Under the pieces are notes generated by a model. It did not search any database. It saw nothing but the letters and a program-made list of their open reading frames with translations, and had not been told where the DNA came from. The position numbers were made by a program, and so were the translations under genes. A stretch of DNA of 25,625 nucleotides from Candidatus Nanohaloarchaea archaeon. Lineage in GTDB: Archaea > Nanohalarchaeota > Nanosalinia > Nanosalinales > Nanosalinaceae. Every line of letters starts with the position of its first letter. The stretch's first letter is position 1. Location of the stretch: contig JBDGSJ010000017.1 of NCBI GenBank assembly GCA_042217585.1, positions 1 through 25,625 on the forward strand, in the 5' to 3' direction. Below are positions 5,088 through 22,175 of this stretch, piece after piece.

Positions 5088-5657
5088 ATGGGTTCAGTAA
5101 GCTTACCCGAGTCCATCAGTCTATCTGAAGGTGATTCGGGGACCCAGTCCTCCGCGATCGGAAGGAACCTTTCAGTGACCGCGGCTCTTACGGCATCAGG
5201 TATCGCGGGCAGGGTCGCTCTCCAGCACATCCCGAGCGTGGAGACTGTGCTCCCTGTAGCGGTCGCTGTTGGCTTCTACCACGACTGGCGGCACGGCGCC
5301 GCCTCGGGCGTCTCGGGATACTATGTCACGAACTTCCTCGTCTGGGGAGGCCAGGGACCCTGGACGCTTTTCCAGATGGTTGGAGCAGGGATGGCTGGCG
5401 CATCTGGAGGACTGTTCTCGAAGCTCTCCAGAAACGGCAGATCGCTGGCAGCGGCCTTAGCTACCGGCACAGTACTTTTCGAGCTTTCTGTGAACCTGGG
5501 TTCGGTGATATACGTTCCGATGGCTGCCTCGATAGGTCTCGCATATTTCGCGGCCGCAATACCGTACGGTTTAATACATTTAACCAGTTCAATTGGGATA
5601 GGGTTGACAATCCATGGCTTCAACCGACAGATCAGACAGCTTTACAGACAGGATTAA
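5088..5657 (+). CDS. ECF transporter S component, CbrT-like (probably cobalamin)
   Basis: About six hydrophobic segments with RVALQHIPSVE and TNFLVWGGQGPWTLFQM motifs; overlaps a DUF4430 gene. Confidence 0.8.
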   Translation: MGSVSLPESISLSEGDSGTQSSAIGRNLSVTAALTASGIAGRVALQHIPSVETVLPVAVAVGFYHDWRHGAASGVSGYYVTNFLVWGGQGPWTLFQMVGAGMAGASGGLFSKLSRNGRSLAAALATGTVLFELSVNLGSVIYVPMAASIGLAYFAAAIPYGLIHLTSSIGIGLTIHGFNRQIRQLYRQD

Positions 5658-6048
5658 CTGGAAGTACATCGCCGGAGGAGTCCTTGTGCTGGCCTTGCTT
5701 CTAGGAGCTCTGGAACTCAAGAGCCGGACCCCGGCACCTGGACCTGAACAGATGACGGTCAGTGTGACGGTCGAGCGACCTGACGTCACCAAGCAGAAGA
5801 ACGTCAGTTTGGGCGTCAATTCTACAGCTCTCAGAGCACTCAACGAGAGCTTCACCGTGGACTACCGGAGGACTGACCTCGGGGTCTACGTGACCTCGAT
5901 CGACGGCCTCGCGAGCAACAGCACCCATTACTGGGCGTTCTGGGTGAACGGCGATTACGCCAAGAAAGGCGTAGGTAGCTACGTGCTGTCCGAAGGAGAC
6001 AGAGTTACCTTCAACTACACGGCCCTGAACTCCAGCGTAACCGGTTAA
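5614..6048 (+). CDS. Membrane-anchored DUF4430 (transcobalamin beta-domain-like) protein
   Basis: N-terminal TM helix followed by TALRAL, GVYVTSIDG, YWAFWVNG...GVGSYVLSEGDRVTF. Confidence 0.85.
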   Translation: MASTDRSDSFTDRINWKYIAGGVLVLALLLGALELKSRTPAPGPEQMTVSVTVERPDVTKQKNVSLGVNSTALRALNESFTVDYRRTDLGVYVTSIDGLASNSTHYWAFWVNGDYAKKGVGSYVLSEGDRVTFNYTALNSSVTG

Positions 6049-10887: not shown

Positions 10888-11068
10888 GAGAGAAATATGC
10901 GGAGGGCGAGGATTCAAACCCTAAGCGACGGTTTCCGGGATCAAATTCCGCCGAGAGAAAACGTGTTTGCGAGGGCAAGGATTCGAATTCTAAAACAGGT
11001 TTTCTGCGTTCGAATCCAGAGTAAAGCAAATTCAAGAGAAAAATTTGCGAGGGCGAGGATTCGAACCC
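10888..11068 (-). repeat. Two degenerate direct repeats of the tRNA-Leu 3' end and its U-rich trailer
   Basis: 10966-10987 matches 11044-11065 at 21/22 nt; 10902-10921 matches 11049-11068 at 19/20 nt. Each copy is preceded on the plus strand by AGAGAAA. Confidence 0.85.
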
Positions 11069-11128
11069 CGGAACCTCTACAGGACAGCGCCCTCAACGCT
11101 GCGCCTTTGACCACTTGGCTACCCTCGC
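11046..11128 (-). tRNA. tRNA-Leu(GAG), no encoded CCA, no intron
   Basis: Acceptor stem GCGAGGG/CCCTCGC-A, anticodon arm CAGCG-TTGAGGG-CGCTG, long variable arm, T arm CGGGG-TTCGAAT-CCTCG. Confidence 0.96.
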
Positions 11129-11295: not shown

Positions 11296-11880
11296 TCAGT
11301 CGTCGCCGACCTTCTTCCGGCAGTAGGGGCAGACGTTCCACTCGGGGTCAAGAAGCTTGCTGCAGTTGTCGCACCGGTCCCGCATCCTGTGACCGCATTC
11401 GGGACACGCCATCCATTCGTCCTCGATGTCGTGACCGCAGTTCGGACAGCTGGAAAGGGACTGCTTTCCGGCACTCCTCATCCTGTTGACCAGCTCCTGG
11501 ACCTCCTTCGGGTTCTCGATGTTGGAGAAACCCATCTCGTCCCCGGAGCTTCCTGCGGTGCTTATGGAGACCTCCCCATAGCCGAAGTAGTTGCCGAAGA
11601 CGCCCTGAGAGAAGGATATGTCCTGGATCTTGTCGAAGCCGATGTTCTGGACCCTGCGGGACAGCACGCCGGTCTTCTCGTAGAGACCCTTGTTGGTGAC
11701 GACGTAGTCAGTGTTCTTGATGTTCAGGTATGCCCCGGCGATTATCAGCAGGCCGACCCCGAAAACCGGTATCATCGGGATGCCGAACAGTATCGCAGGT
11801 ATTATGCTGTGTATCCGTGGTTCGCCGGACCACTCTATCTCCTCTCCCCTGTCCAGGGAGAGCCAGTCGTACTCCGTCAT
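11296..11880 (-). CDS. Membrane protein with bacterial-type PH domain and C-terminal double zinc ribbon
   Basis: TM hairpin, then YVVTNKGL..KTGVLSR....I...KIQDI....G...FGYG.V.I.TAG, then CPNC/CPEC/CDNC/CPYC. Start moved to the ATG at 11880. Confidence 0.88.
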   Translation of the reverse strand: MTEYDWLSLDRGEEIEWSGEPRIHSIIPAILFGIPMIPVFGVGLLIIAGAYLNIKNTDYVVTNKGLYEKTGVLSRRVQNIGFDKIQDISFSQGVFGNYFGYGEVSISTAGSSGDEMGFSNIENPKEVQELVNRMRSAGKQSLSSCPNCGHDIEDEWMACPECGHRMRDRCDNCSKLLDPEWNVCPYCRKKVGDD

Positions 11881-11903: not shown

Positions 11904-12572
11904 TCAAAAGTATTTCCCGTCCTCGCCGAGGACGCATGAGCCTTTTACCACGCCCTCTCCGGCCAGGTAGTCATCGGTCATCTCCCTCGCCTCCTCCGAT
12001 ATGAAGCCCGGTCCTGCCCCTGAAGGATCTATGCGGTCCGTCAGTCTGTCGTAGAGGCCTTCCACGGTATCGACCGCGTCGTAGAACTCCTCTGGCTCTA
12101 TCCCATCCTCCTCGAGCATCCCGTCGATCTCGGGCTCCTCCTCGTACCAGCACGCCCTCAGGACCACGGAATCCTTTCTCAGGCTGGCGGAGAGCCCGAC
12201 GAGCTGTTCTCCGGTCTCCCTGCTGTACACGTCGCCCCCGGACATGTAGGCTTCGTGGCCGAGGTCCTCCAGCTCCTCAACGATCGCGGCGGACCACGCC
12301 TCCATGTATCCTTTCCCTGCCTTCGAGCCGTCGTTCGGGGCCGCGACCATCGCGCATTTCGTGTCGTCGTGATACCACGATAGTCCGCCGTCGCGCCTCC
12401 TGTTCTCGGGGAACTTCGGCCCTGTCATCACCTCTCTCCTGCCGCGGACCACGTTTTTCTCCTCCTCGTGGTCCAGGAAAAGCCTTGTTAGTCCGTCTTC
12501 TCCCCTGATGTGGGCTTCTTCGACGAGTTCTGGTATCTCCTCCGGTTCCTGCACCTTTCTCTCGTAGTCCAT
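11904..12572 (-). CDS. Divergent lipoate-protein-ligase (BPL/LplA/LipB) fold protein lacking the catalytic lysine
   Basis: Aligns by eye with the neighbouring LplA: RRRDGGLSWYHD, IVEELEDLGHEA, GDVY...GEQLVGLSA. ATG at 12572 lies 4 bp after the lplA stop. Confidence 0.7.
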   Translation of the reverse strand: MDYERKVQEPEEIPELVEEAHIRGEDGLTRLFLDHEEEKNVVRGRREVMTGPKFPENRRRDGGLSWYHDDTKCAMVAAPNDGSKAGKGYMEAWSAAIVEELEDLGHEAYMSGGDVYSRETGEQLVGLSASLRKDSVVLRACWYEEEPEIDGMLEEDGIEPEEFYDAVDTVEGLYDRLTDRIDPSGAGPGFISEEAREMTDDYLAGEGVVKGSCVLGEDGKYF

Positions 12573-12576
12573 CCTT

Positions 12577-13317
12577 TCACTCCTGGTATATCCATTCGTC
12601 GGTCCTGTACTTCTCAGCGAGCTCCTCCGCCCTTGACCTCTCCTGATCCGTAAGCCGGTCTTCCTCATATTCCCTGCCGTCCAGAAGCCCTTTCCGGACC
12701 GCCTCCACGGCTTCCTCGAAGGATGCGTCGGATTCCTTCCGGACCGATGTGACTCGCTCTCTGAAATCCCTGATCTCCTTGTCCTCTATCTTTTCCTCCC
12801 CGGGCGTCAGGACCTGGAACATCTCCTCGGGATCCACGTCGTAAAGCAGCGTTCCGCCGATGTATATGACTCCTCTCTCCTTTTTTGCGGTCGCGCCCGA
12901 TATCTTGCCGTTCCCGGTTACGACGTCATTGACGGGTTCGTGTTCCGCTCCGATACCGATTTCCTCGAGTCCGGACGCTATCCTGCCGCATACCCGGCGG
13001 TAGACCTCGTCAAGGTCGTCCGGGTAGAACGACTCCGGCGCGACTATACCCCATGTTATCTCTCCGTCGGACCTCAGGTATGTGGTGCCGCCTCCTCCCT
13101 GCCGCCTCACCACAGCTATATCTCTTTCCTCCACCTCCTCAGTGTCGACCTGCTCCTCTACCTGCTGTGAATAACCTACGTTCACGGTGTCCTGGTCCCA
13201 GCCCGCGAGGAACACGACTGGACGGGGGTTCTCCCTCAGGGACTCCATGAGCGCCCTGTTGAGTCCTGTCTTGAAGTACGGGTCGTACTTCCGGAACGGT
13301 ATTACTCTCCAGCTCAT
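12577..13317 (-). CDS. lplA: Lipoate-protein ligase A family protein, catalytic domain only (LplA-N/LipM-like)
   Basis: VGYSQ, VVRRQGGGGTTY, NDVVTGNGKISG, GGTLLYD. Confidence 0.9.
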   Translation of the reverse strand: MSWRVIPFRKYDPYFKTGLNRALMESLRENPRPVVFLAGWDQDTVNVGYSQQVEEQVDTEEVEERDIAVVRRQGGGGTTYLRSDGEITWGIVAPESFYPDDLDEVYRRVCGRIASGLEEIGIGAEHEPVNDVVTGNGKISGATAKKERGVIYIGGTLLYDVDPEEMFQVLTPGEEKIEDKEIRDFRERVTSVRKESDASFEEAVEAVRKGLLDGREYEEDRLTDQERSRAEELAEKYRTDEWIYQE

Positions 13318-13356: not shown

Positions 13357-14373
13357 ATGAAGGGCGAGGCCTCACTGAAGGTGGAGAACGGCAAGCTTGT
13401 CAAACTTGAAGCGGAGCACGACGGAGAAAAGGTCCGGGAAGTGGATATAACCGGCGATTTCTTCATACAGCCACCGGGAGGCCTGGAAGAGCTGGAGAAG
13501 GCTCTTGAAGACCTGGAGCTGGACGTCCACCGGGACGAGGTCCAGAGACTGGCGGAGAACGTGGACGCCGAGCTGATAGGTTTCTCCCCGGAGCACGTGG
13601 CCGAGATATTCGAGGAGGCAGTCGCGCCGGAGTGGAGGATAATCAACGAAGGAAAGTATTCGGAGGCGATGCACCACGCGATAGATGAGGTCCTTACAGA
13701 GAGGATGAACGAGGGCGATATGAGGCCGACGCTCAGGTTCTGGTACCGGGAGAACCCGTCGGTCCCGATTGGGCGTTTCCAGTCATACAGCGATGAGGTC
13801 CAGGAGGACTACATCGAGGACCACGATGTGGAGGTCGTGAGAAGGATAACCGGCGGAGGTGCGATGTACACCGAGCCCGGAGACGTGATAACGTATTCGA
13901 TCTATATACCTGCCGATCGGGTCCCGGACGACACGCAGGAGGCCTACGAGGAGCTGGACCGTTTCGCCGTAGAGACGCTTAACGAGCTCGGTCTCGATGT
14001 GGAGTACCAGCCGCTGAACGACATCGAGCACGAGGACGGGAAGGTCGGCGGAGCCGCCCAGCTCAAGAAGCAGGACGCGGTCCTCCACCACACGACGATG
14101 AGCTACGACCTGAACACGAAGAACATGCTGAAGGCCCTCAGGATCGGGAAGGAGAAGGTCTCCGACAAGGCGATCCAGTCCGCGGAGAAAAGGGTCGCGG
14201 TCATGAGCGACTACATCGACGAGCCCCGGGAGAAGGTCATCGAGGCCATGATCCAGAAGTTCAGGGAGAAGCACGGCGGCGAGGAAGGTTCGCTGACCGG
14301 GGAAGAGCTGGACCGGGCGAGAGAGCTCGCGGACCAGAAGTTCAGCACCGAGGAGTGGAACCGGAAGATGTGA
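13357..14373 (+). CDS. lplA: Circularly permuted lipoate-protein ligase (LplB accessory domain fused N-terminal to LplA)
   Basis: N-terminal KVENGKLV...ITGDFFIQP accessory domain, then IGRFQS, VVRRITGGGAMY, NDI....GKVGGAAQ, VLHHTTMSYD. Confidence 0.92.
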   Translation: MKGEASLKVENGKLVKLEAEHDGEKVREVDITGDFFIQPPGGLEELEKALEDLELDVHRDEVQRLAENVDAELIGFSPEHVAEIFEEAVAPEWRIINEGKYSEAMHHAIDEVLTERMNEGDMRPTLRFWYRENPSVPIGRFQSYSDEVQEDYIEDHDVEVVRRITGGGAMYTEPGDVITYSIYIPADRVPDDTQEAYEELDRFAVETLNELGLDVEYQPLNDIEHEDGKVGGAAQLKKQDAVLHHTTMSYDLNTKNMLKALRIGKEKVSDKAIQSAEKRVAVMSDYIDEPREKVIEAMIQKFREKHGGEEGSLTGEELDRARELADQKFSTEEWNRKM

Positions 14374-14436: not shown

Positions 14437-17319
14437 ATGGTCCAGTTACCCGATGCCCGCGAGACAGCTGCCTTACTCTCGGCCCTGGCCCTTCTGGGCT
14501 CCATAATCATACTTGCAGGGTCCAGCACCGGCGACCGGTTGACCGGAAGAGCCGGGCCGGCTTCTCTTGAGTCAGGTCTGGGAGGGCAGAACCTCAGGGA
14601 TATCGCCCGGAGGGCGGCAGGTGCCGCGAACACCACTGCCGCAAGGGAACTCCTGAGGAAATACGGGCTGAAAACCCTGAGCTCCTCCAGCCTGAGGGAC
14701 GTGCTGAGCGGAAAAGCGCTGAGAGACCTGGCAAAACTGTTCGGACCGGGAAGCGGCCTCAAGACCGGCGACATCTCTCCCAGGATAGGACAGGCCGGGA
14801 TGAAGCCCTCGGGAGATCTCTCTGGAAGGATAGGAGCAGGCCTCACCTCTGCGAACAACGTCAGCCTCGGAGGCTCTCTGAACCTCTCGACGGAGAAGAT
14901 AATGACTGTCGAGGCCGAGAGACCTGCCTACTGGCGGCAGGGCTCCTACGTCAGCTACACGGGGAAGGGATGGACCCGGCCGGGCGAGAAGCGGCCCTAC
15001 TCCGAGCCGGTTGAGAACTCCTCGGGCGAGAAACTGGTCCAGACCTTCCACCTGAAGACCCGGATTAACTCTCTCGTTGCGGCGTGGAAGCCTCAGAGAG
15101 TCCGGAATGCGGGAGAACTGAAGCTGGCGGGGGACGCCAGGATAATCTCGGAGAAGGGCCTGGAACCAGGTGACAGCTACACGGCAGTCAGCAGGGTGGA
15201 GGACCGCTCCCCTGAGAAGCTGAGGGAGGCGGGAGAGGACTACCCGAGAAGAGTCCTGAGGTACACAGAACTCCCGGACTCGGTCCCGGAAAGGGTCTCC
15301 AGGAAAGCCGCCGAGGTGACCTCGGGTGCGGACAGCAACTACGACGAGGCGAAGATGGTCGAGAACTGGCTCGAATCGAACAAGGAGTACTCCCTGAAGG
15401 TGGACGCACCGAAGGAGGACTTCGTCGACACCTTCATCTTCGAGATGGAGAAAGGCTACTGCGCGTACTACGCCTCGGCGATGACAGTGATGCTGAGGAC
15501 CCAGGGGATACCGGCGAGGTACGTCACCGGGTACACCCCCGGGAAAAAGGTGAACGGAAAGTACGTGGTCCGGTCCATGAACGCGCACGCATGGGTCGAG
15601 GTCTACTTCCCGGGCGAGGGATGGGTCAGGTTCGACCCGACGCCCGCGGCAGAGAGACAGGCACAGGAGAATCAGGCCCTTGGCGGCCCGGGCGCTCAAC
15701 ACCCCGGCAACCGGACTGACCCCGGGAACCAGACAGACGGGCCGGAAAACCAGTCAGCCACCGGGAACGAGACTGAGAGCGGACCGGACATCTCGATAGA
15801 GGACGGTAGGCCGTCGGCAGGCGAGAAAGTGAAGATCCATGCCAGGGCCGGTGGAGAACCGGTCAGCACCCGGGTGGCGGTCGACGGAAGATACATAGGG
15901 AGGACCGGGGACCAGGGAACCATCCGGGCCTCTCTCCCCTTCAGAGACCGCGTGAAGATCTCACTCCCGGAGAGAGGATACAGCGAGGAGTTCGACCTCT
16001 ACTCGCGGATATCTATCACCCTGGAGCCACCAGCCGCCGGCAGGAACTCGAGGATACGAGCCGTGCTGGACGGCAGAGGGCTGGACAGGGCGTCGGTCAG
16101 GCTCGGAGGCGTGTACGAGGGCTCTACCGTGAACGGCTCTCTACGGGTCCAGCTCCCGTGGAGGAGATACGTCCAGGTATCGGTCTCTAAGGGTGAGCTC
16201 ACCAGGTCCGTGAACGCGAGCCTCGACGCGACACCCAGGATAGGACTCACCGGCGAGACCTTGCCCGGTCGAACGGTCGAGCTGAACGTGACCCACGCCG
16301 GAGAGCCTCTGGCAAATGCCTCAGTGAGTTTCAGCGGCGAGAAGATGCGGACAGGAGCAAACGGGACCGTGGACCTGGAGATGCCTTCTGAACCCGGGAA
16401 CTATACTATCGAGGTCAGGAAGAGAGGAGTTGCGGGTTCCATGGAGGTCAGAGTGGAGTCCCTGGACCTCAGGGTCGATCCGTACCTGCCAGTGGCCCTG
16501 CCGGGAAGGTCCGCGACCGTTACCGCCAGCATCGACGGCGAACCCCTGGAAAACGTTTCAGTGATGCTTGAAGGAGAGGAAATCGGTTCGACCGGCCCCA
16601 ATGGCACGCTGAGCACATCCCTGCCTTTCACCGGCTCTGCGACCTACACCGCGCGGACGCTGGGCCTGAGGGCGGAGAGGACCATCTCAGGGATGATGGT
16701 GAACCTGGCGGCCCTGGTGCTATCCGGAGTACTGATTCTCTCTGTATCAGGTTTCGTGGCCTACCGGAGGGGATACGGACCACGTGACCTGCTGTCGCTC
16801 CTGGCCAGTCCGGGAATGCTGGCATCCTACCTTTTCACCGGTCTCAGCTCCGTTTTCCTGGTGCTGACCGGAGGGATGGACTCCGTGGCCTCCTGGCTGC
16901 AGCGGGTGGCAGGGAAACTCGAGAGAGCCGTCAGACAGCTCGTGTCCAGGGGAAGGACCGATGTCGAGTTCCACCCCTTCAGGGCCGCCATGAAAAAGTT
17001 TGAAGGCGCAGTAGAACGGGTGCTCGCGCGTTACAGGACATTGATGAGTCTGCTCGGCACCGGCGGAGCGGGTTCAGGACCGCTGGACCTTGACCGGGCC
17101 TGGAATGTCCTGAAGGACGCGACGTCCCTGGAGAGGTTCACCGGCAGGACCCCGGGAGACGTCGAGAGACACGCCCTCGAGAAGGATATGCTTCCGGAGG
17201 AGCCCGTGAAGTACATAGCCGAGAACTTCCGCAGACAGAAGTACGGACCGGGCTCGGAGCCGGAGATAGAAAAACTTGAGGAGTACTCTGACGAACTCAG
17301 GGGTGAAGAGGAGGGATGA
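14437..17319 (+). CDS. Membrane transglutaminase-like protein (TgpA type) with Ig-like repeats and DUF4129-like C-terminus
   Basis: YWR...Y..Y.G.GW; Cys-His-Asp triad in GYCAYYAS, HAWVEVYFPG and FDPT; repeated G.T...G beta-sandwich units; TM helices; TPGD and QKYG near the C-terminus. Confidence 0.9.
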   Translation: MVQLPDARETAALLSALALLGSIIILAGSSTGDRLTGRAGPASLESGLGGQNLRDIARRAAGAANTTAARELLRKYGLKTLSSSSLRDVLSGKALRDLAKLFGPGSGLKTGDISPRIGQAGMKPSGDLSGRIGAGLTSANNVSLGGSLNLSTEKIMTVEAERPAYWRQGSYVSYTGKGWTRPGEKRPYSEPVENSSGEKLVQTFHLKTRINSLVAAWKPQRVRNAGELKLAGDARIISEKGLEPGDSYTAVSRVEDRSPEKLREAGEDYPRRVLRYTELPDSVPERVSRKAAEVTSGADSNYDEAKMVENWLESNKEYSLKVDAPKEDFVDTFIFEMEKGYCAYYASAMTVMLRTQGIPARYVTGYTPGKKVNGKYVVRSMNAHAWVEVYFPGEGWVRFDPTPAAERQAQENQALGGPGAQHPGNRTDPGNQTDGPENQSATGNETESGPDISIEDGRPSAGEKVKIHARAGGEPVSTRVAVDGRYIGRTGDQGTIRASLPFRDRVKISLPERGYSEEFDLYSRISITLEPPAAGRNSRIRAVLDGRGLDRASVRLGGVYEGSTVNGSLRVQLPWRRYVQVSVSKGELTRSVNASLDATPRIGLTGETLPGRTVELNVTHAGEPLANASVSFSGEKMRTGANGTVDLEMPSEPGNYTIEVRKRGVAGSMEVRVESLDLRVDPYLPVALPGRSATVTASIDGEPLENVSVMLEGEEIGSTGPNGTLSTSLPFTGSATYTARTLGLRAERTISGMMVNLAALVLSGVLILSVSGFVAYRRGYGPRDLLSLLASPGMLASYLFTGLSSVFLVLTGGMDSVASWLQRVAGKLERAVRQLVSRGRTDVEFHPFRAAMKKFEGAVERVLARYRTLMSLLGTGGAGSGPLDLDRAWNVLKDATSLERFTGRTPGDVERHALEKDMLPEEPVKYIAENFRRQKYGPGSEPEIEKLEEYSDELRGEEEG

Positions 17320-17864
17320 GGAAGCGCGACTTCATCTACCTCGTCCTGGGTCTGGGCCTTTTCGGCCTCGCCGCCACCACAGTCCTCGCCCCGGGAGCAG
17401 TGCTCCGGAAGCTACCTCTCATGGAAGCCCTATCCTCTGCCTCAGGACCGCTCTCGCTGGGCGTCCTCGCAGCCTCCAGCCTGGTGGTCCTCATGTACGC
17501 GCTGTGGAGCGCACGGCCATCGGAAACCGACCTGAAGAACCTGGACCCCGGGATACCTCCTGAGACACCGGAAGACGCCGGGGGAGAGTTCGTAGGAGAG
17601 AAAATCGACGAGATGATAGAGGCGGGAGACGAAGAGCACCTCAGGGAACGTTTCAGAGCGACGGCGAAGCAGTTAGCCGGCGAGGAAAGTTTGAGGGACG
17701 GATCATGGACCGGTTCAAGGATAGCAGCCTGCTTCGTGAACGCGGACCTTAAGTACCCGTTGCTGGAGCGGCTGAGGGAGTGGCTGGAGTCGGAGGACCA
17801 GACGCTGGAGCGCAGGACCCGAAAAACCGTCGAGGCGCTGGAGGAGGTGTACAGGGATGAGTGA
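17316..17864 (+). CDS. Conserved hypothetical 2-TM protein of the MoxR/DUF58 cluster
   Basis: ATGA overlap with the upstream gene, two TM helices, G.WT....AA.F and ERLREWL motifs. Confidence 0.8.
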   Translation: MRKRDFIYLVLGLGLFGLAATTVLAPGAVLRKLPLMEALSSASGPLSLGVLAASSLVVLMYALWSARPSETDLKNLDPGIPPETPEDAGGEFVGEKIDEMIEAGDEEHLRERFRATAKQLAGEESLRDGSWTGSRIAACFVNADLKYPLLERLREWLESEDQTLERRTRKTVEALEEVYRDE

Positions 17865-19170
17865 AGCTGTGAGGAACCGGAGCTGGAGGCCCGCTGTCCC
17901 ACTGATGCTGGTCCTGGCCGCGCTGGGCGTGGCGACAGGTTCGACGCCCCTGATCGTCGCGGCGGTTATACCTTTCACGTTCCTGGTCTACGGAGCTCTC
18001 TCGTCCCCGCCCTCGGGGGAGGACCTCGAGGTTTCACGGAGCCTGGAGACGGGCAAGCCCTCGCCGGGGCAGGAGATAGAGGTGACTCTCCGCCTCAGGA
18101 ACACTGGCGGGAGGACGATACCCGACGCCAGAGTTATAGACGGGGTCCCCGAGGACCTCGCCGTGGTGGACGGCTCGCCAAGGGGCTCAGTTGCGCTCAG
18201 GCCGGACGGAGAGACCGAGATAACTTACAGGGTGCTCGCGAAGCGCGGTGAACACTTCTTCGGGCCGGCGGAGGTCGAGCTGAGGAGTCTCAGCGGCGGC
18301 AGTTCCCGGACCTGCGAGAAAGATGTCTCCGGCGAGGAGGAGATGAACTGCTTCGTCGGGCTCCATGAGCTCCCGCTGAGAGACGAGACCGTGGAGTACA
18401 GCGGCGAGATATCCACGGCGGAGGGAGGCTCTGGGGTCGAGTTCCACTCGGTCCGTGAGTACCGTCCAGCGGACCCGCTGAACAGGATCGACTGGAACCA
18501 CCTGGCGAAGGACGACGAGCTGAACACTGTGAACTTCAGGGAACAGCACTCCGCCAGGATAGTCCTGCTGGTCGATGCGAGGGACGTCTCGGACCGCAGG
18601 CCGGTCGTCGGCCACCCAACAGGAACGGACCTTTCCGTGTACGCCGCGGAGCGGATGTTCGACGCGGTCCAGGAGACCCGGCACCAGGCAGGGGTAGCGG
18701 TCCTGGGCATGGAGGACCACGATTTCTCGGAGGACCAGGTCCACAGCGCGTACAGCGTGCCATGGGTGAAGCCCGGCGGTAGAAGTTCAAGAGAGAAGAC
18801 GGAGAACCTGCTCCAGGAGATCTACGGCGCTGAAAAGACCGGAGGCGGCTCTGGAGAGGAGTACGCCCAGGAGCTCTACGGGATGCTTCCCCCCGACTCA
18901 CAGGTCGTCCTGTTCTCCCCCCTGCTTGACGACGAGCTTATCGACACGGTCAAGGTCCTGAACTCGAACGGCCACAAGGTCACCGTCGTGAGCCCGGCCA
19001 TGGCAACGGGTGGCACCATCGGACAGGACCTCGAGTCGCTGGAGCGCGAACTCCGGCTCGACGACCTGAGGCGGTTCTCCCCGGTTATAGACTGGGACAT
19101 CGAAACCCCGCTACAGCTGACGGTCGTGCACGCACTGAAGACCGTCTTCAGGAGGGAGGTGTACCGGTGA
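17857..19170 (+). CDS. DUF58 (vWA-like) protein with N-terminal TM and Ig-like domain
   Basis: GSGVEFHSVREYRPADPLNRIDWNHLAK, VLLVDAR, FSPLLD. Confidence 0.92.
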   Translation: MSEAVRNRSWRPAVPLMLVLAALGVATGSTPLIVAAVIPFTFLVYGALSSPPSGEDLEVSRSLETGKPSPGQEIEVTLRLRNTGGRTIPDARVIDGVPEDLAVVDGSPRGSVALRPDGETEITYRVLAKRGEHFFGPAEVELRSLSGGSSRTCEKDVSGEEEMNCFVGLHELPLRDETVEYSGEISTAEGGSGVEFHSVREYRPADPLNRIDWNHLAKDDELNTVNFREQHSARIVLLVDARDVSDRRPVVGHPTGTDLSVYAAERMFDAVQETRHQAGVAVLGMEDHDFSEDQVHSAYSVPWVKPGGRSSREKTENLLQEIYGAEKTGGGSGEEYAQELYGMLPPDSQVVLFSPLLDDELIDTVKVLNSNGHKVTVVSPAMATGGTIGQDLESLERELRLDDLRRFSPVIDWDIETPLQLTVVHALKTVFRREVYR

Positions 19171-20675
19171 GCCGGCCCGGCGAACTCGGAGACTCGAACT
19201 GGAGGCCCTCGACCACAGGCTCCGTGATAGGGATCCTTGTAACAGCAGGGTTCCTCGCCGCTGTGACCGCGCTCTCCGGCATACAGTACTACGTCGCGGC
19301 CGCGGCCGCCGGCTCGGTGGTCCTCGCGGTGGCTGTCAGACTGGACGATCTCGACACGCTCAGCCAGCTGACCGACTTCCTCTCCGCCCTCCTGATGCTG
19401 CCGGCGAGCTTCGCCATCTTCAACGCCGCAACGGTCGTGAAACCCCTCTATCTCCTGGTGTCGCAGGGGTCTCTCGGCTACATACAGGCCGCCGGATACG
19501 TCCTGATAGTAGCGGGATCGGCGGTAGCCTCCTTCGGGGCCGCCGTCCTGAAATGGGACTCGGAGAGGAGGAAGAGCCAGGTCCAGAGAGCCGCGAGGAA
19601 GCAGATGAAGTTCCTGACCGCTCTGGGAGCTATACTCGCGGTCTTCCTGGTATCGCAGTACATAACGCAGAAGACCGTGCTTTCCTACGGAGTGAAAGCT
19701 ATGGAGTACGTGACAGGGACCGGAACGGAGTACGGCGGAGTCATCGCCGGCGCACTGCTGTTTGCCGCGTACTGGACCGGCAGACTGGCGTGGAGGAAGC
19801 TCCCGTTCAACGAGGCCGTGCCCAGAAGACATGAGGGGACTTACTCGAAACTCGCGACGGTCGAAAAATACTTCGCGTGGACCGTGGTACCCCTCACCGC
19901 CGGAGCTGTCGCCGCTTCGGACCTCACAACCCTCCCTGCGCAGTCCGCGAGATATGCTTCCCTGCTGTCACGTTCAGGTTCGAGGACCGGGCTTCTCCAG
20001 GCTGTCGCGGGGTTCGGCGGCCTCTACCTCGGTCTGAAGTTCCTGAAGTCGCTGAACGAGGAAACGAGGAGGAAGGTTATGGACCTTTCGCCCTACCTCC
20101 TGCTGGGTTCCGCGGCTGTCGCAGGTATAGTGTATGCTCCACAGTCCGCGGTCAACAGGTTGCTGGGCGTCTTACCGGGCGTGGTGGCCTCGGGGTACGA
20201 CGTGCTCGGCAGGGAGCTTTTCCTCGGTATGATCTCTGTCGCGGTCTACCTTCCGCCGGTGCTCTGGCTGGGATCTCTTTACTTCCTCGAGAAGCTGAGG
20301 TTCATGCCTTCCTCGTTCTCCGGGGCGTCGATGTCCGCGGCAGGGATATTCGTCGCCACTATGGGAGCGGGCGTGGCGGGGCTGAACACCGTGGTAGTGT
20401 TCGCCGGGACCGCCCTGACGCTCGTGGCATGGGAGACCGGAAGGCACTCGTCGGTACTGGGATCGCAGATAGGGAAGAAAGGGGTGAAGAGACAGAGCGA
20501 GCTGACCCACGACCTGGCGTCGCTCAGCGTCGGAGCGCTCGCGGTCGGAGCGGCGATCATGCTTACAAGGTTCTCAGGCGATATCTCCGGGCTCGTGAAC
20601 CTGGAGACGCCGGCGGCGGTCCTCGCGCTGGCAGCGGTGGCGTTGCTGGCGACCGTGCTGGAGAGGTCCGGTTAG
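19167..20675 (+). CDS. Polytopic membrane protein of the MoxR/DUF58 cluster
   Basis: GTGA overlap start, more than 12 hydrophobic segments, C-terminal AWE.G.H...LG.QIG......ELTH motif. Confidence 0.82.
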   Translation: MSRPGELGDSNWRPSTTGSVIGILVTAGFLAAVTALSGIQYYVAAAAAGSVVLAVAVRLDDLDTLSQLTDFLSALLMLPASFAIFNAATVVKPLYLLVSQGSLGYIQAAGYVLIVAGSAVASFGAAVLKWDSERRKSQVQRAARKQMKFLTALGAILAVFLVSQYITQKTVLSYGVKAMEYVTGTGTEYGGVIAGALLFAAYWTGRLAWRKLPFNEAVPRRHEGTYSKLATVEKYFAWTVVPLTAGAVAASDLTTLPAQSARYASLLSRSGSRTGLLQAVAGFGGLYLGLKFLKSLNEETRRKVMDLSPYLLLGSAAVAGIVYAPQSAVNRLLGVLPGVVASGYDVLGRELFLGMISVAVYLPPVLWLGSLYFLEKLRFMPSSFSGASMSAAGIFVATMGAGVAGLNTVVVFAGTALTLVAWETGRHSSVLGSQIGKKGVKRQSELTHDLASLSVGALAVGAAIMLTRFSGDISGLVNLETPAAVLALAAVALLATVLERSG

Positions 20676-21623
20676 TCAGACTTCCGGGACCTCGACGGAT
20701 TCGAGCACGTCCCTGACGACCTCGGAGTTCTCCACGTCCTTGACGTTCGCCTCCGCGGTCAGGACCAGCCGGTGCTGCATCACGGGCTCCGCGACCTGCT
20801 TCACGTCGTCCGGGGCGACGTAGCTCCTCCCGTTTATCAGCGCCCGGGCTCTCGAGGCCTCGAATATCCTCTGGACCCCTCTCGGCGAGACCCCCACGGA
20901 AACGCGCTCGTCCATCCGGGTCTGCCTCCCTATCTTGACGATGTAGTCCCTTATCTTCTCGTCGGTGCTGATCTTCTCCGCGACCCTCTGGACGGTCCGG
21001 ACCACACCCCTGTCGACCGCTTTCTCCGCCTGCGGCATCTGGCTGTCCCTGTCGGCCCTGCGGTCCAGCATCTTTTTCTCGCCGTCGTAGCTCGGGTAGC
21101 CCATCGAGGTCTTGACCATGAAACGGTCCCTCTGCGCCTCGGGAAGCGCGAACGTTCCCTCCTGTTCAATCGGGTTCTGCGTCGCGATCACGAAGAACGG
21201 CTCCGGGAGTTCCCGGGTCTCGTCACCCACTGTTACCTGTTTCTCTCCCATAGCCTCCAGCAGGGCGGCCTGGGTCTTCGGCGGCGCGCGGTTGATCTCG
21301 TCCGCCAGCACGATGTTCGAGAAGATCGGTCCCTCCCGGAACTCGAAGCTACCCTCCTGCTTGCTGTAGACATGCGTACCGGTGATGTCCGATGGAAGCA
21401 GGTCCGGCGTGAACTGTATCCTGTTGAAGGAGAGGTCCATCGACCTTGCGAGGCTTCTCGCCGTCAGCGTCTTTCCCGTGCCGGGGACGTCCTGTATCAG
21501 GACGTGGCCCTTCGCCACTATCCCGGTGAGGACAGTTTCAAGGAACTCCTCGTCGGCGATGACCGCGCCAGAAACAGATTCAAGTATATCCGAACAGCTC
21601 TGCGATGCCTCCTCAAGGTTCAT
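20676..21623 (-). CDS. moxR: MoxR-family AAA+ ATPase
   Basis: GHVLIQDVPGTGKT, RIQFTPDLLPSDITG, LADEINRAPPKTQAALLEAM, ATQNPIE.EGTF.LPEAQ.DRF. Confidence 0.96.
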   Translation of the reverse strand: MNLEEASQSCSDILESVSGAVIADEEFLETVLTGIVAKGHVLIQDVPGTGKTLTARSLARSMDLSFNRIQFTPDLLPSDITGTHVYSKQEGSFEFREGPIFSNIVLADEINRAPPKTQAALLEAMGEKQVTVGDETRELPEPFFVIATQNPIEQEGTFALPEAQRDRFMVKTSMGYPSYDGEKKMLDRRADRDSQMPQAEKAVDRGVVRTVQRVAEKISTDEKIRDYIVKIGRQTRMDERVSVGVSPRGVQRIFEASRARALINGRSYVAPDDVKQVAEPVMQHRLVLTAEANVKDVENSEVVRDVLESVEVPEV

Positions 21624-21656: not shown

Positions 21657-22175
21657 TCAGTACTTCGGGCTTTTCTCCTCCACCCCGTCAAGATGGTTCT
21701 CGTGGCGCGCCATCAGGAAGAAGAGGTCGCTCAGCCTGTTGATGTACGCGAGGACCTGCTGTCTTAGCTGCTCGTGCTGGTCCAGCTCCACTATCCGTCT
21801 CTCCGCCCTCCTCGCCACGGACCGCGCGAGGTGGAGCTGTGAAGCCGCCTCCGTTCCACCGGCAAGCACGAAGCTCCTCAGCGGCGGGCACTCCTCCTGG
21901 TACTCGTCGCAGAGGTCCTCCAGCCGGTCCACGTTCTCTTCAGTGACCTTCGTGTCGGGGTTCCTGTTCGCGAGCTCCGCCTGGAGGATGTGGAGCTCAT
22001 TCTGGACCTCCTCCAGCTCGTCGTGCTTTCTCTCGCAGTGGGCCGCGGCCACACCGACCACCGAGTTGAGTTCGTCGACGGTTCCGTAAGCCTCTATCCT
22101 CTCCGAGCTCTTCGACACCCTTTCGCCCGACGAGAGGTCCGTCCTGCCGCGGTCGCCTTTCCCGGTGTATACCAT
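21657..22175 (-). CDS. pduO: PduO-type ATP:cob(I)alamin adenosyltransferase
   Basis: YTGKGD.G.T, AYGTVDELNS, RSVARRAER, YINRLSDLFF. Confidence 0.95.
   Translation of the reverse strand: MVYTGKGDRGRTDLSSGERVSKSSERIEAYGTVDELNSVVGVAAAHCERKHDELEEVQNELHILQAELANRNPDTKVTEENVDRLEDLCDEYQEECPPLRSFVLAGGTEAASQLHLARSVARRAERRIVELDQHEQLRQQVLAYINRLSDLFFLMARHENHLDGVEEKSPKY

What the first reader, a model, noticed from the sequence alone, without database searches (positions are those of the whole stretch)
11904..12572. LplA-fold paralogue without the catalytic lysine, coupled to an intact ligase
Seen: the protein follows its upstream neighbour motif by motif (RRRDGGLSWYHD vs RRQGGGGTTYL; GDVYSRETGEQLVG vs NDVVTGNGKISG), with Q where the conserved Lys sits. 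The frame is intact, codon usage is host-like, it has three Cys, and it starts 4 bp after the lplA stop. Established: this Lys is conserved across LplA, LipB, LipM and BirA; LipB and LipL use a Cys acyl intermediate. Inference: a pseudo-ligase partner subunit or a Cys-dependent acyl/amidotransferase of an uncharacterised type.
Basis: partly seen in the sequence, partly recalled or inferred. Interest (0 to 1): 0.7.

Follow-up and report, generated by a model that had tools for sequence, protein, structure and literature searches.

The report
Split lipoate ligase with tail cysteine
Tiny symbiotic archaea appear to attach the cofactor lipoic acid to their pyruvate dehydrogenase with a two-gene system in which one copy of the ligase keeps the catalytic lysine and the other copy, which lost it, supplies a cysteine at its tail end, an arrangement not found in the papers searched.

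The parts
11904..12572 (-). P0001: Lys-less LplA-fold partner with rebuilt pocket (H35, D61, H68, C73, Q123, R139, C141) and C-terminal tail Cys213
11934..11936 (-). Codon of C213, the tail cysteine (V-K-G-S-C), proposed acyl-thioester nucleophile
   Evidence: 105 of 106 homologues; same tail in single-chain Lys-containing relatives
12204..12206 (-). Codon of Q123, at the position of the catalytic Lys
   Evidence: Q 95, H 8, R 2, K 1 of 106
12577..13317 (-). P0002: pair-type LplA catalytic domain; keeps K138, N130-D131, K176, R188; no LplB domain, no Cys loop or tail; lipoate-site consensus residues replaced by small or polar ones
13357..14373 (+). P0003: ordinary lipoate ligase, LplB domain fused in front of LplA (Lpl(BA)); divergently transcribed; the alternative system, not part of the pair
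   Evidence: NF053751 342.8 bits, below its 550 cut-off; NF053749 LplB on residues 7-88

Best explanation
P0002 and P0001 form a two-gene lipoate salvage system that replaces LplA+LplB and lipoylates the E2 subunit of pyruvate dehydrogenase. The catalytic parts are split over two paralogues. P0002 keeps the Lys and the ATP-side loop and activates scavenged lipoate to lipoyl-AMP (inferred). P0001 takes the place of LplB and delivers its C-terminal Cys213, in trans, as the nucleophile that holds the lipoyl group as a thioester before it passes to the E2 lysine (inferred). The tail is a third location for the family's acyl-carrier Cys, besides the LipB and LipM loops. H68, C73 and C141 in P0001's own former lipoate pocket are probably a metal or structural site (inferred from their joint loss). 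Shown: fold, Lys loss, conservation, gene coupling, co-occurrence with PDH, exclusion pattern of LplB / loop Cys / tail Cys. Not shown: physical complex, position of C213 in space, substrate, any chemistry.
For: Coupling: 19 of 22 phylum genomes with the pair-type ligase have a full partner (18 adjacent, 1 with a hydrolase gene between), the other 3 a short form in the same position ending R-A-C-x-x-x; 18 of 22 metagenome loci with room downstream have it. Sufficiency: 12 of 70 genomes have the pair and no ordinary LplA and no LplB match, all 12 with a lipoyl domain (rechecked by Pfam in 4 of them); 0 of 70 have LipA; 5 of 5 tested have one radical SAM protein of over 520 aa only. Context: pair directly before pdhA-pdhB-pdhC-like genes in L047, L049, L051, L052, L053, L079, L080, L088, one gene before in L048; the 5 such genomes tested have one LplA-like gene and no LplB. 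Loss: G065 (1 contig, 98%) lacks lipoyl domain and E1, has about 700 bp of the ligase deleted and carries the only C213S allele. Tail: of 57 complete LplA-fold proteins read from a second archaeal phylum, 37 have LplB in the locus and no tail, 10 have an x-x-C-[FY] loop insertion, 9 keep the Lys and have a G-x-C-type tail (one reads I-K-G-S-C against V-K-G-S-C in P0001; two lie inside the pdh operon), 1 has neither. The tail proteins have lost the K176/R188 loop; P0002 keeps it. LipB and LipM carry their active Cys on different loops of this scaffold (PMC7253636).
Against: The pair-type ligase has replaced about nine lipoate-site consensus residues (N16K, M17T, D20N, Y/W38A, T74G, H81L, S90G, Q144A/L, H154G), so its substrate may not be free lipoate. 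The short forms lack a separate tail and match the family only weakly (hhalign 5.8%, E 0.0065). P0001's own pocket has invariant H35 and R139, which a mere Cys donor would not need. The quick tree puts the partner next to the pair ligase (support 84-90) and the single-chain tail proteins elsewhere, so common origin of the tails is not shown (not rejected either, p-AU 0.34). G068 and G069 have 99% identical partners with 83% identical ligases, which argues against tight co-evolution. Four metagenome loci keep all or part of the ligase with no intact partner. The G065 orphan is not relaxed overall (dN/dS 0.18). The 57 proteins are the best hits of two searches plus 18 hand-picked regions, and only 7 of the 37 LplB-linked ones were aligned for the loop.
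Confidence: 0.5

Rival explanations
1. Two-enzyme relay without a shared active site: P0002 releases lipoyl-AMP, and P0001 is a stand-alone transferase whose C213 folds into its own rebuilt pocket, with R139 and H35 doing the work of the lost Lys. Works like Plasmodium LipL1 plus LipL2.
For: H35, R59, D114, R139 in 106 of 106 and D61, H68 in 95 and 97 of 106 sit at former lipoate-pocket positions (registers; E. coli pocket identities recalled). P0001 keeps the Y-H-D of motif 1 that P0002 lost. G010 and G011 have a separate Lys-to-Thr, tail-Cys paralogue beside an ordinary LplA+LplB, and G294 a tail protein in tandem with LplA+LplB. LipL2 uses lipoyl-AMP made by LipL1 (PMC8600131).
Against: The short forms have lost H35 and the R-x-x-G-G motif yet accompany the only ligase in three genomes; one clade has lost H68, C73 and C141.
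Confidence: 0.2
2. P0001 is a true pseudoenzyme: a metal- or disulfide-stabilised activating subunit that replaces LplB; no Cys takes part in chemistry.
For: Pair and LplB-dependent system replace each other; H68, C73, C141 are lost together, as a metal site would be; fast divergence and short forms; motif 1, remodelled in P0002, is the LplB interface (PMC3904984).
Against: C213 stays when the other three are lost; the same tail occurs in single chains exactly where a catalytic Cys is needed.
Confidence: 0.17
3. The pair takes lipoyl groups from host-derived lipoyl-lysine or lipoylated proteins: P0001 is an amidase or amidotransferase (His, Asp, Cys, Arg), and P0002's opened pocket accepts a larger substrate than free lipoate.
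For: No LipA in 70 genomes; true GcvH in only 4 of 70 and in 1 of 22 pair genomes, so an internal LipL relay is impossible; remodelled pocket with invariant K16, N20; an alpha/beta-hydrolase gene lies at the locus in G004, G019, G028, G294. LipL needs C150 for an acyl-enzyme (10.1101/419234).
Against: The ordinary LplA+LplB serves 32 related genomes alone, so free lipoate is evidently available; P0002 keeps the ATP-side residues.
Confidence: 0.1
4. The pair is not about lipoate (another acyl group or target), or P0001 is a decaying duplicate.
For: Lipoate-site residues lost in P0002; 10 genomes keep both systems; broken copies exist (L070, L071, L072, L086, G028, G065).
Against: dN/dS 0.12-0.20; 65 representatives under 60% identity keep six invariant residues; sole ligase in 12 PDH genomes; pdh operon context; co-loss with PDH.
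Confidence: 0.03

Closest known systems
Bipartite LplA-LplB lipoate:protein ligase (Thermoplasma acidophilum; PDB 2ars, 3r07)
   Different: Second subunit is another LplA-fold domain, not LplB; P0001 lacks the Lys and the adenylate loop; P0002 lacks the H-D of motif 1, the Q of motif 2 and the H of H-G-T.
LipM and LipB octanoyltransferases
   Same: LplB-less catalytic domain with an acyl-carrier Cys (inferred for C213).
   Different: Cys is on a C-terminal tail, not in either loop; Lys is on another gene; no LipA in these genomes, so octanoyl transfer would not give lipoate.
LipL amidotransferase (Bacillus subtilis)
   Different: No GcvH relay protein in 21 of 22 pair genomes; no match to NCBIfam NF053589; LipL keeps the Lys (recalled).
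Plasmodium LipL1 plus LipL2
   Same: Two LplA paralogues share one lipoylation; one activates, the other transfers; host-dependent salvage.
   Different: Here the genes are translationally coupled, have no C-terminal LplB domain, and one has no Lys and a tail Cys.

Membership tests
BPL/LplA/LipB fold superfamily | Catalytic-domain fold | tested here: met
BPL/LplA/LipB fold superfamily | Pfam LplA-B_cat above its cut-off | tested here: not met
   13.1 bits against 27; 24 of 27 close homologues hit it weakly, best E 7.8e-6
LplA lipoate ligase (P0001) | Motif 2 G(R/K)K(I/L/V)SGx(A/G)Q with the catalytic Lys (PMC3904984) | tested here: not met
   Reads GEQLVGLSA; Lys in 1 of 106
LplA lipoate ligase (P0001) | Motif 1 RRxTGGG..HD | tested here: inconclusive
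   RRRDGGLSWYHD: core R, G, G and HD kept, T to D, third G lost
LplA lipoate ligase (P0001) | LplB domain fused or adjacent | tested here: not met
   None in P0001; none found in 12 pair-only genomes or 5 other genomes
LplA lipoate ligase (P0002) | Catalytic Lys and ATP-side residues | tested here: met
   K138, N130, D131 in 45 of 45; K176, R188 in 41 of 45
LplA lipoate ligase (P0002) | Lipoate-site consensus (motif 1 HD, motif 2 Q, H of HGT) | tested here: not met
   L81, A/L144, G154
LplA lipoate ligase | Forms lipoyl-AMP and lipoylates E2 | not testable with these tools
   Needs an assay
LipM octanoyltransferase | Cys in a loop insertion before the N-D/Y-E motif (position recalled; seen in 10 proteins) | tested here: not met
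   No such insertion in P0002; Cys in that segment in 4 of 106 partners, unconserved
LipM octanoyltransferase | Co-occurs with lipoyl synthase | tested here: not met
   LipA 0 of 70, 0 of 2 other pair genomes; one long radical SAM protein in each of 5 genomes; LipS1/S2 reported absent from Nanohaloarchaeota (PMC10332631)
LipL amidotransferase | GcvH donor in the genome | tested here: not met
   Full-length GcvH match in G006, G008, G015, G026 only; only G026 has the pair
LipL amidotransferase | NCBIfam NF053589 match | tested here: not met
   No family at E up to 1 for P0001
LipL amidotransferase | Cys acyl-enzyme intermediate | not testable with these tools

The most novel reading that the evidence does not exclude
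The pair is a cofactor-theft device of host-dependent archaea: P0001's rebuilt His/Asp/Arg/Cys pocket is a new active site that strips lipoyl groups from host-derived lipoyl-lysine or lipoylated proteins, and the tail cysteine relays them through the opened pocket of P0002 to the symbiont's own pyruvate dehydrogenase; the tail-Cys single chains would be an undescribed third class of acyltransferase beside LipB and LipM.
Probability: 0.15. Interest if true: 0.85.

Novelty: new variant of a known kind. Interest (0 to 1): 0.7.

Why it matters
Tanabe et al. 2023 (PMC10332631, passages seen) state that unknown transferases probably exist and that LplA domains lost LplB several times. This gives two concrete, testable cases: single-chain proteins with a C-terminal Cys, and a split pair in which the family's most conserved residue is dispensable in one subunit. 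It explains how a sixth of the nanohaloarchaeal genomes searched, with PDH but no LplB, LipA or GcvH, could lipoylate E2, and so bears on what these symbionts must take from their hosts. The proteins are annotated as hypothetical and fall below all family cut-offs. A ligase with a naturally opened pocket may also interest protein-labelling work (link recalled).

Full report

CONSERVATION. In 106 homologues (65 under 60% identity) H35, R59, G63, D114 and R139 are invariant; C213 is in 105, C73 in 100, C141 and H68 in 97; position 123 is Q 95, H 8, R 2, K 1. One clade has C141Y together with loss of H68 and mostly C73, but keeps C213. dN/dS for 13 of 15 pairs that gave a value is 0.12-0.20; the 7 pairs with dS under 1 give 0.12-0.19. 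H35, D61, H68 and R139 fall on positions that line the lipoate pocket of LplA (registers; the pocket identities W37, S72, H79, H149 of E. coli are recalled). The loop that carries K176/R188 in ligases is shortened in P0001, so it probably binds no ATP (inference).

THE PARTNER LIGASE IS A SUBFAMILY OF ITS OWN. P0002 splits the phylum's LplA genes into a class at 49-67% identity (22 of 70 genomes) and an ordinary class near 30-36% (42 genomes). The class keeps K138, N130, D131 (45 of 45) and K176, R188 (41 of 45) but replaces about nine lipoate-site consensus residues with small or polar ones. The two genes are thus complementary: P0002 has the Lys and lacks the H-D of motif 1, P0001 the reverse (motifs from PMC3904984, passages).

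GENOMIC EVIDENCE FOR FUNCTION. Of 22 genomes with the pair ligase, 19 have a full partner (one cut by a contig end, one with a hydrolase gene between) and 3 a 120-150 aa form in the same place that ends R-A-C plus three residues; five such short proteins keep a His, the Arg and the Cys, but their homology is weakly supported. LplB was found in 40 genomes, all with an ordinary LplA, and in none of the 12 pair-only genomes, which all have a lipoyl domain; 10 genomes have both systems, 32 only the ordinary one, 16 neither, 9 of these without a lipoyl domain. Five of the 12 are at least 90% complete, one is a single contig; kin are not independent. LipA is in 0 of 70, full GcvH in 4 of 70. In a second lineage of about 1 Mb archaea (record titles 'Methanosarcinales' and 'Nanoarchaeia'; placement not verified) the pair lies directly before genes I read as pdhA, pdhB, pdhC from their motifs (recalled); five such genomes have one LplA-like gene and no LplB. 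There the family is rare (2 true hits in 301 genomes). In 30 metagenome loci, 22 had room downstream and 18 had the partner (some are duplicates); the 4 without it sit beside an ordinary LplA+LplB, and three show short remnants. G065 lacks E1, the lipoyl domain and any LplA; against its relative G066 the ligase is deleted but for a 3' remnant with stops, and the partner carries G126D and C213S, though its overall dN/dS (0.18) is not raised. G028 has a degenerate orphan that keeps only the tail Cys.

WHAT THE TAIL CYS IS. A weak hit led to single-chain proteins that keep the Lys, lack LplB and end in the same tail (K-K-G-A-C-Y; I-K-G-S-C-H; P0001 V-K-G-S-C-V). Among 57 complete LplA-fold proteins read from that phylum (top loci plus 18 chosen regions; one cut protein dropped), 37 have LplB in the locus and end at the W-x-x-x-R motif (three regex hits for a Cys in the last helix were reassigned by eye), 10 have an x-x-C-[FY] loop insertion of the LipM type (one, L177, also ends in an odd Cys), 9 have the tail, and 1 at a contig edge has neither. 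Tail proteins have lost the K176/R188 loop; several sit in or next to the pdh operon; 3 of 3 tested genomes have LipA. LipB and LipM have their active Cys on different loops of this scaffold (PMC7253636, passages), and LipL needs C150 for its acyl-enzyme (10.1101/419234, passages). The simplest reading is that the tail is a third seat for that Cys. The pair ligase is the one LplB-less class with neither loop nor tail, and the gene behind it supplies one. G010 and G011 carry an independent Lys-to-Thr paralogue with a G-F-C tail. Quick trees join the partner to the pair ligase (support 84-90, long branch), which fits tandem duplication and division of labour; a clade with the single chains is not rejected (p-AU 0.34) nor shown.

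MECHANISM. Most likely: P0002 adenylates salvaged lipoate, P0001 binds in place of LplB and its C213 takes the lipoyl group as a thioester and passes it to E2 (0.5). Rivals: free relay with catalysis in P0001's own pocket, like Plasmodium LipL1/LipL2 (PMC8600131, passages; 0.2); non-catalytic metal-stabilised subunit (0.17); transfer from host lipoyl-lysine or proteins (0.1); unrelated or decaying (0.03). All chemistry is inferred; no complex model was available and the model coordinates could not be inspected.

NOVELTY. No Pfam or NCBIfam family covers P0001. Ten searches found no description (see Tried and rejected). PMC10332631 (passages) describes repeated loss of LplB and predicts unknown transferases but the passages seen do not mention this pair; 10.64898/2026.10.01.755906 (passages) has no occurrence of DPANN or LplB; PMC11184557 (passages) was not used. 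Subscription papers and supplements were not seen. Verdict: new variant of a known kind, interest 0.7.

Noticed in passing
L099:1498-2172, L100:1327-2115, L116:1387-2142, L132:1357-2115, L169:2727-3494, L170:2748-3545, L171:2208-3566, L182:2547-3323, L168:3387-4190: Single-chain LplA-fold proteins with the Lys, no LplB and a C-terminal G-x-C tail, several in pdh operons or beside lipA: a candidate third class of octanoyl/lipoyl transferase that deserves its own study.
   Followed up: partly
L135:1825-2652, L136:1935-2765: Independent LplA paralogue with Thr at the catalytic Lys and a G-F-C-F tail, in two nanohaloarchaeal genomes that also have LplA+LplB.
   Followed up: partly
L027:8280-8657, L026:7045-7506, L028:1502-1879: Short 120-150 aa partner forms ending in R-A-C-x-x-x, each followed by a tRNA-like gene region; possibly the minimal functional unit.
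   Followed up: partly
L037:1744-2625: G020 has a third LplA copy in tandem (41% to P0002) with an altered glycine loop (RRQDTGKAM).
   Followed up: no
L005:741-1499, L009:3060-3683, L055:996-2219, L168:5590-6393: An alpha/beta-hydrolase gene recurs at lipoate ligase loci in four genomes; could release lipoate from conjugates.
   Followed up: no
L039:8079-8771 and L040:6594-7286: G068 and G069 partners are 99% identical while their ligases are 83% identical: recent recombination or transfer of one gene of the pair.
   Followed up: partly
window 5088-6048 and 21657-22175: Membrane protein plus DUF4430 gene pair and a cobalamin adenosyltransferase; both recur next to the ligase loci in several relatives (L003, L014, L015, L070, L071; L016, L018, L028, L055), suggesting a cofactor-salvage neighbourhood.
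   Followed up: no
window 11296-11880, 11046-11128, 2552-2626: Bacterial PH domain plus double zinc ribbon gene directly after the partner, then tRNA-Leu(GAG); tRNA-His(GTG) further left.
   Followed up: no
window 14437-21623: Transglutaminase-like, DUF58 and MoxR AAA gene cluster of the usual kind.
   Followed up: no
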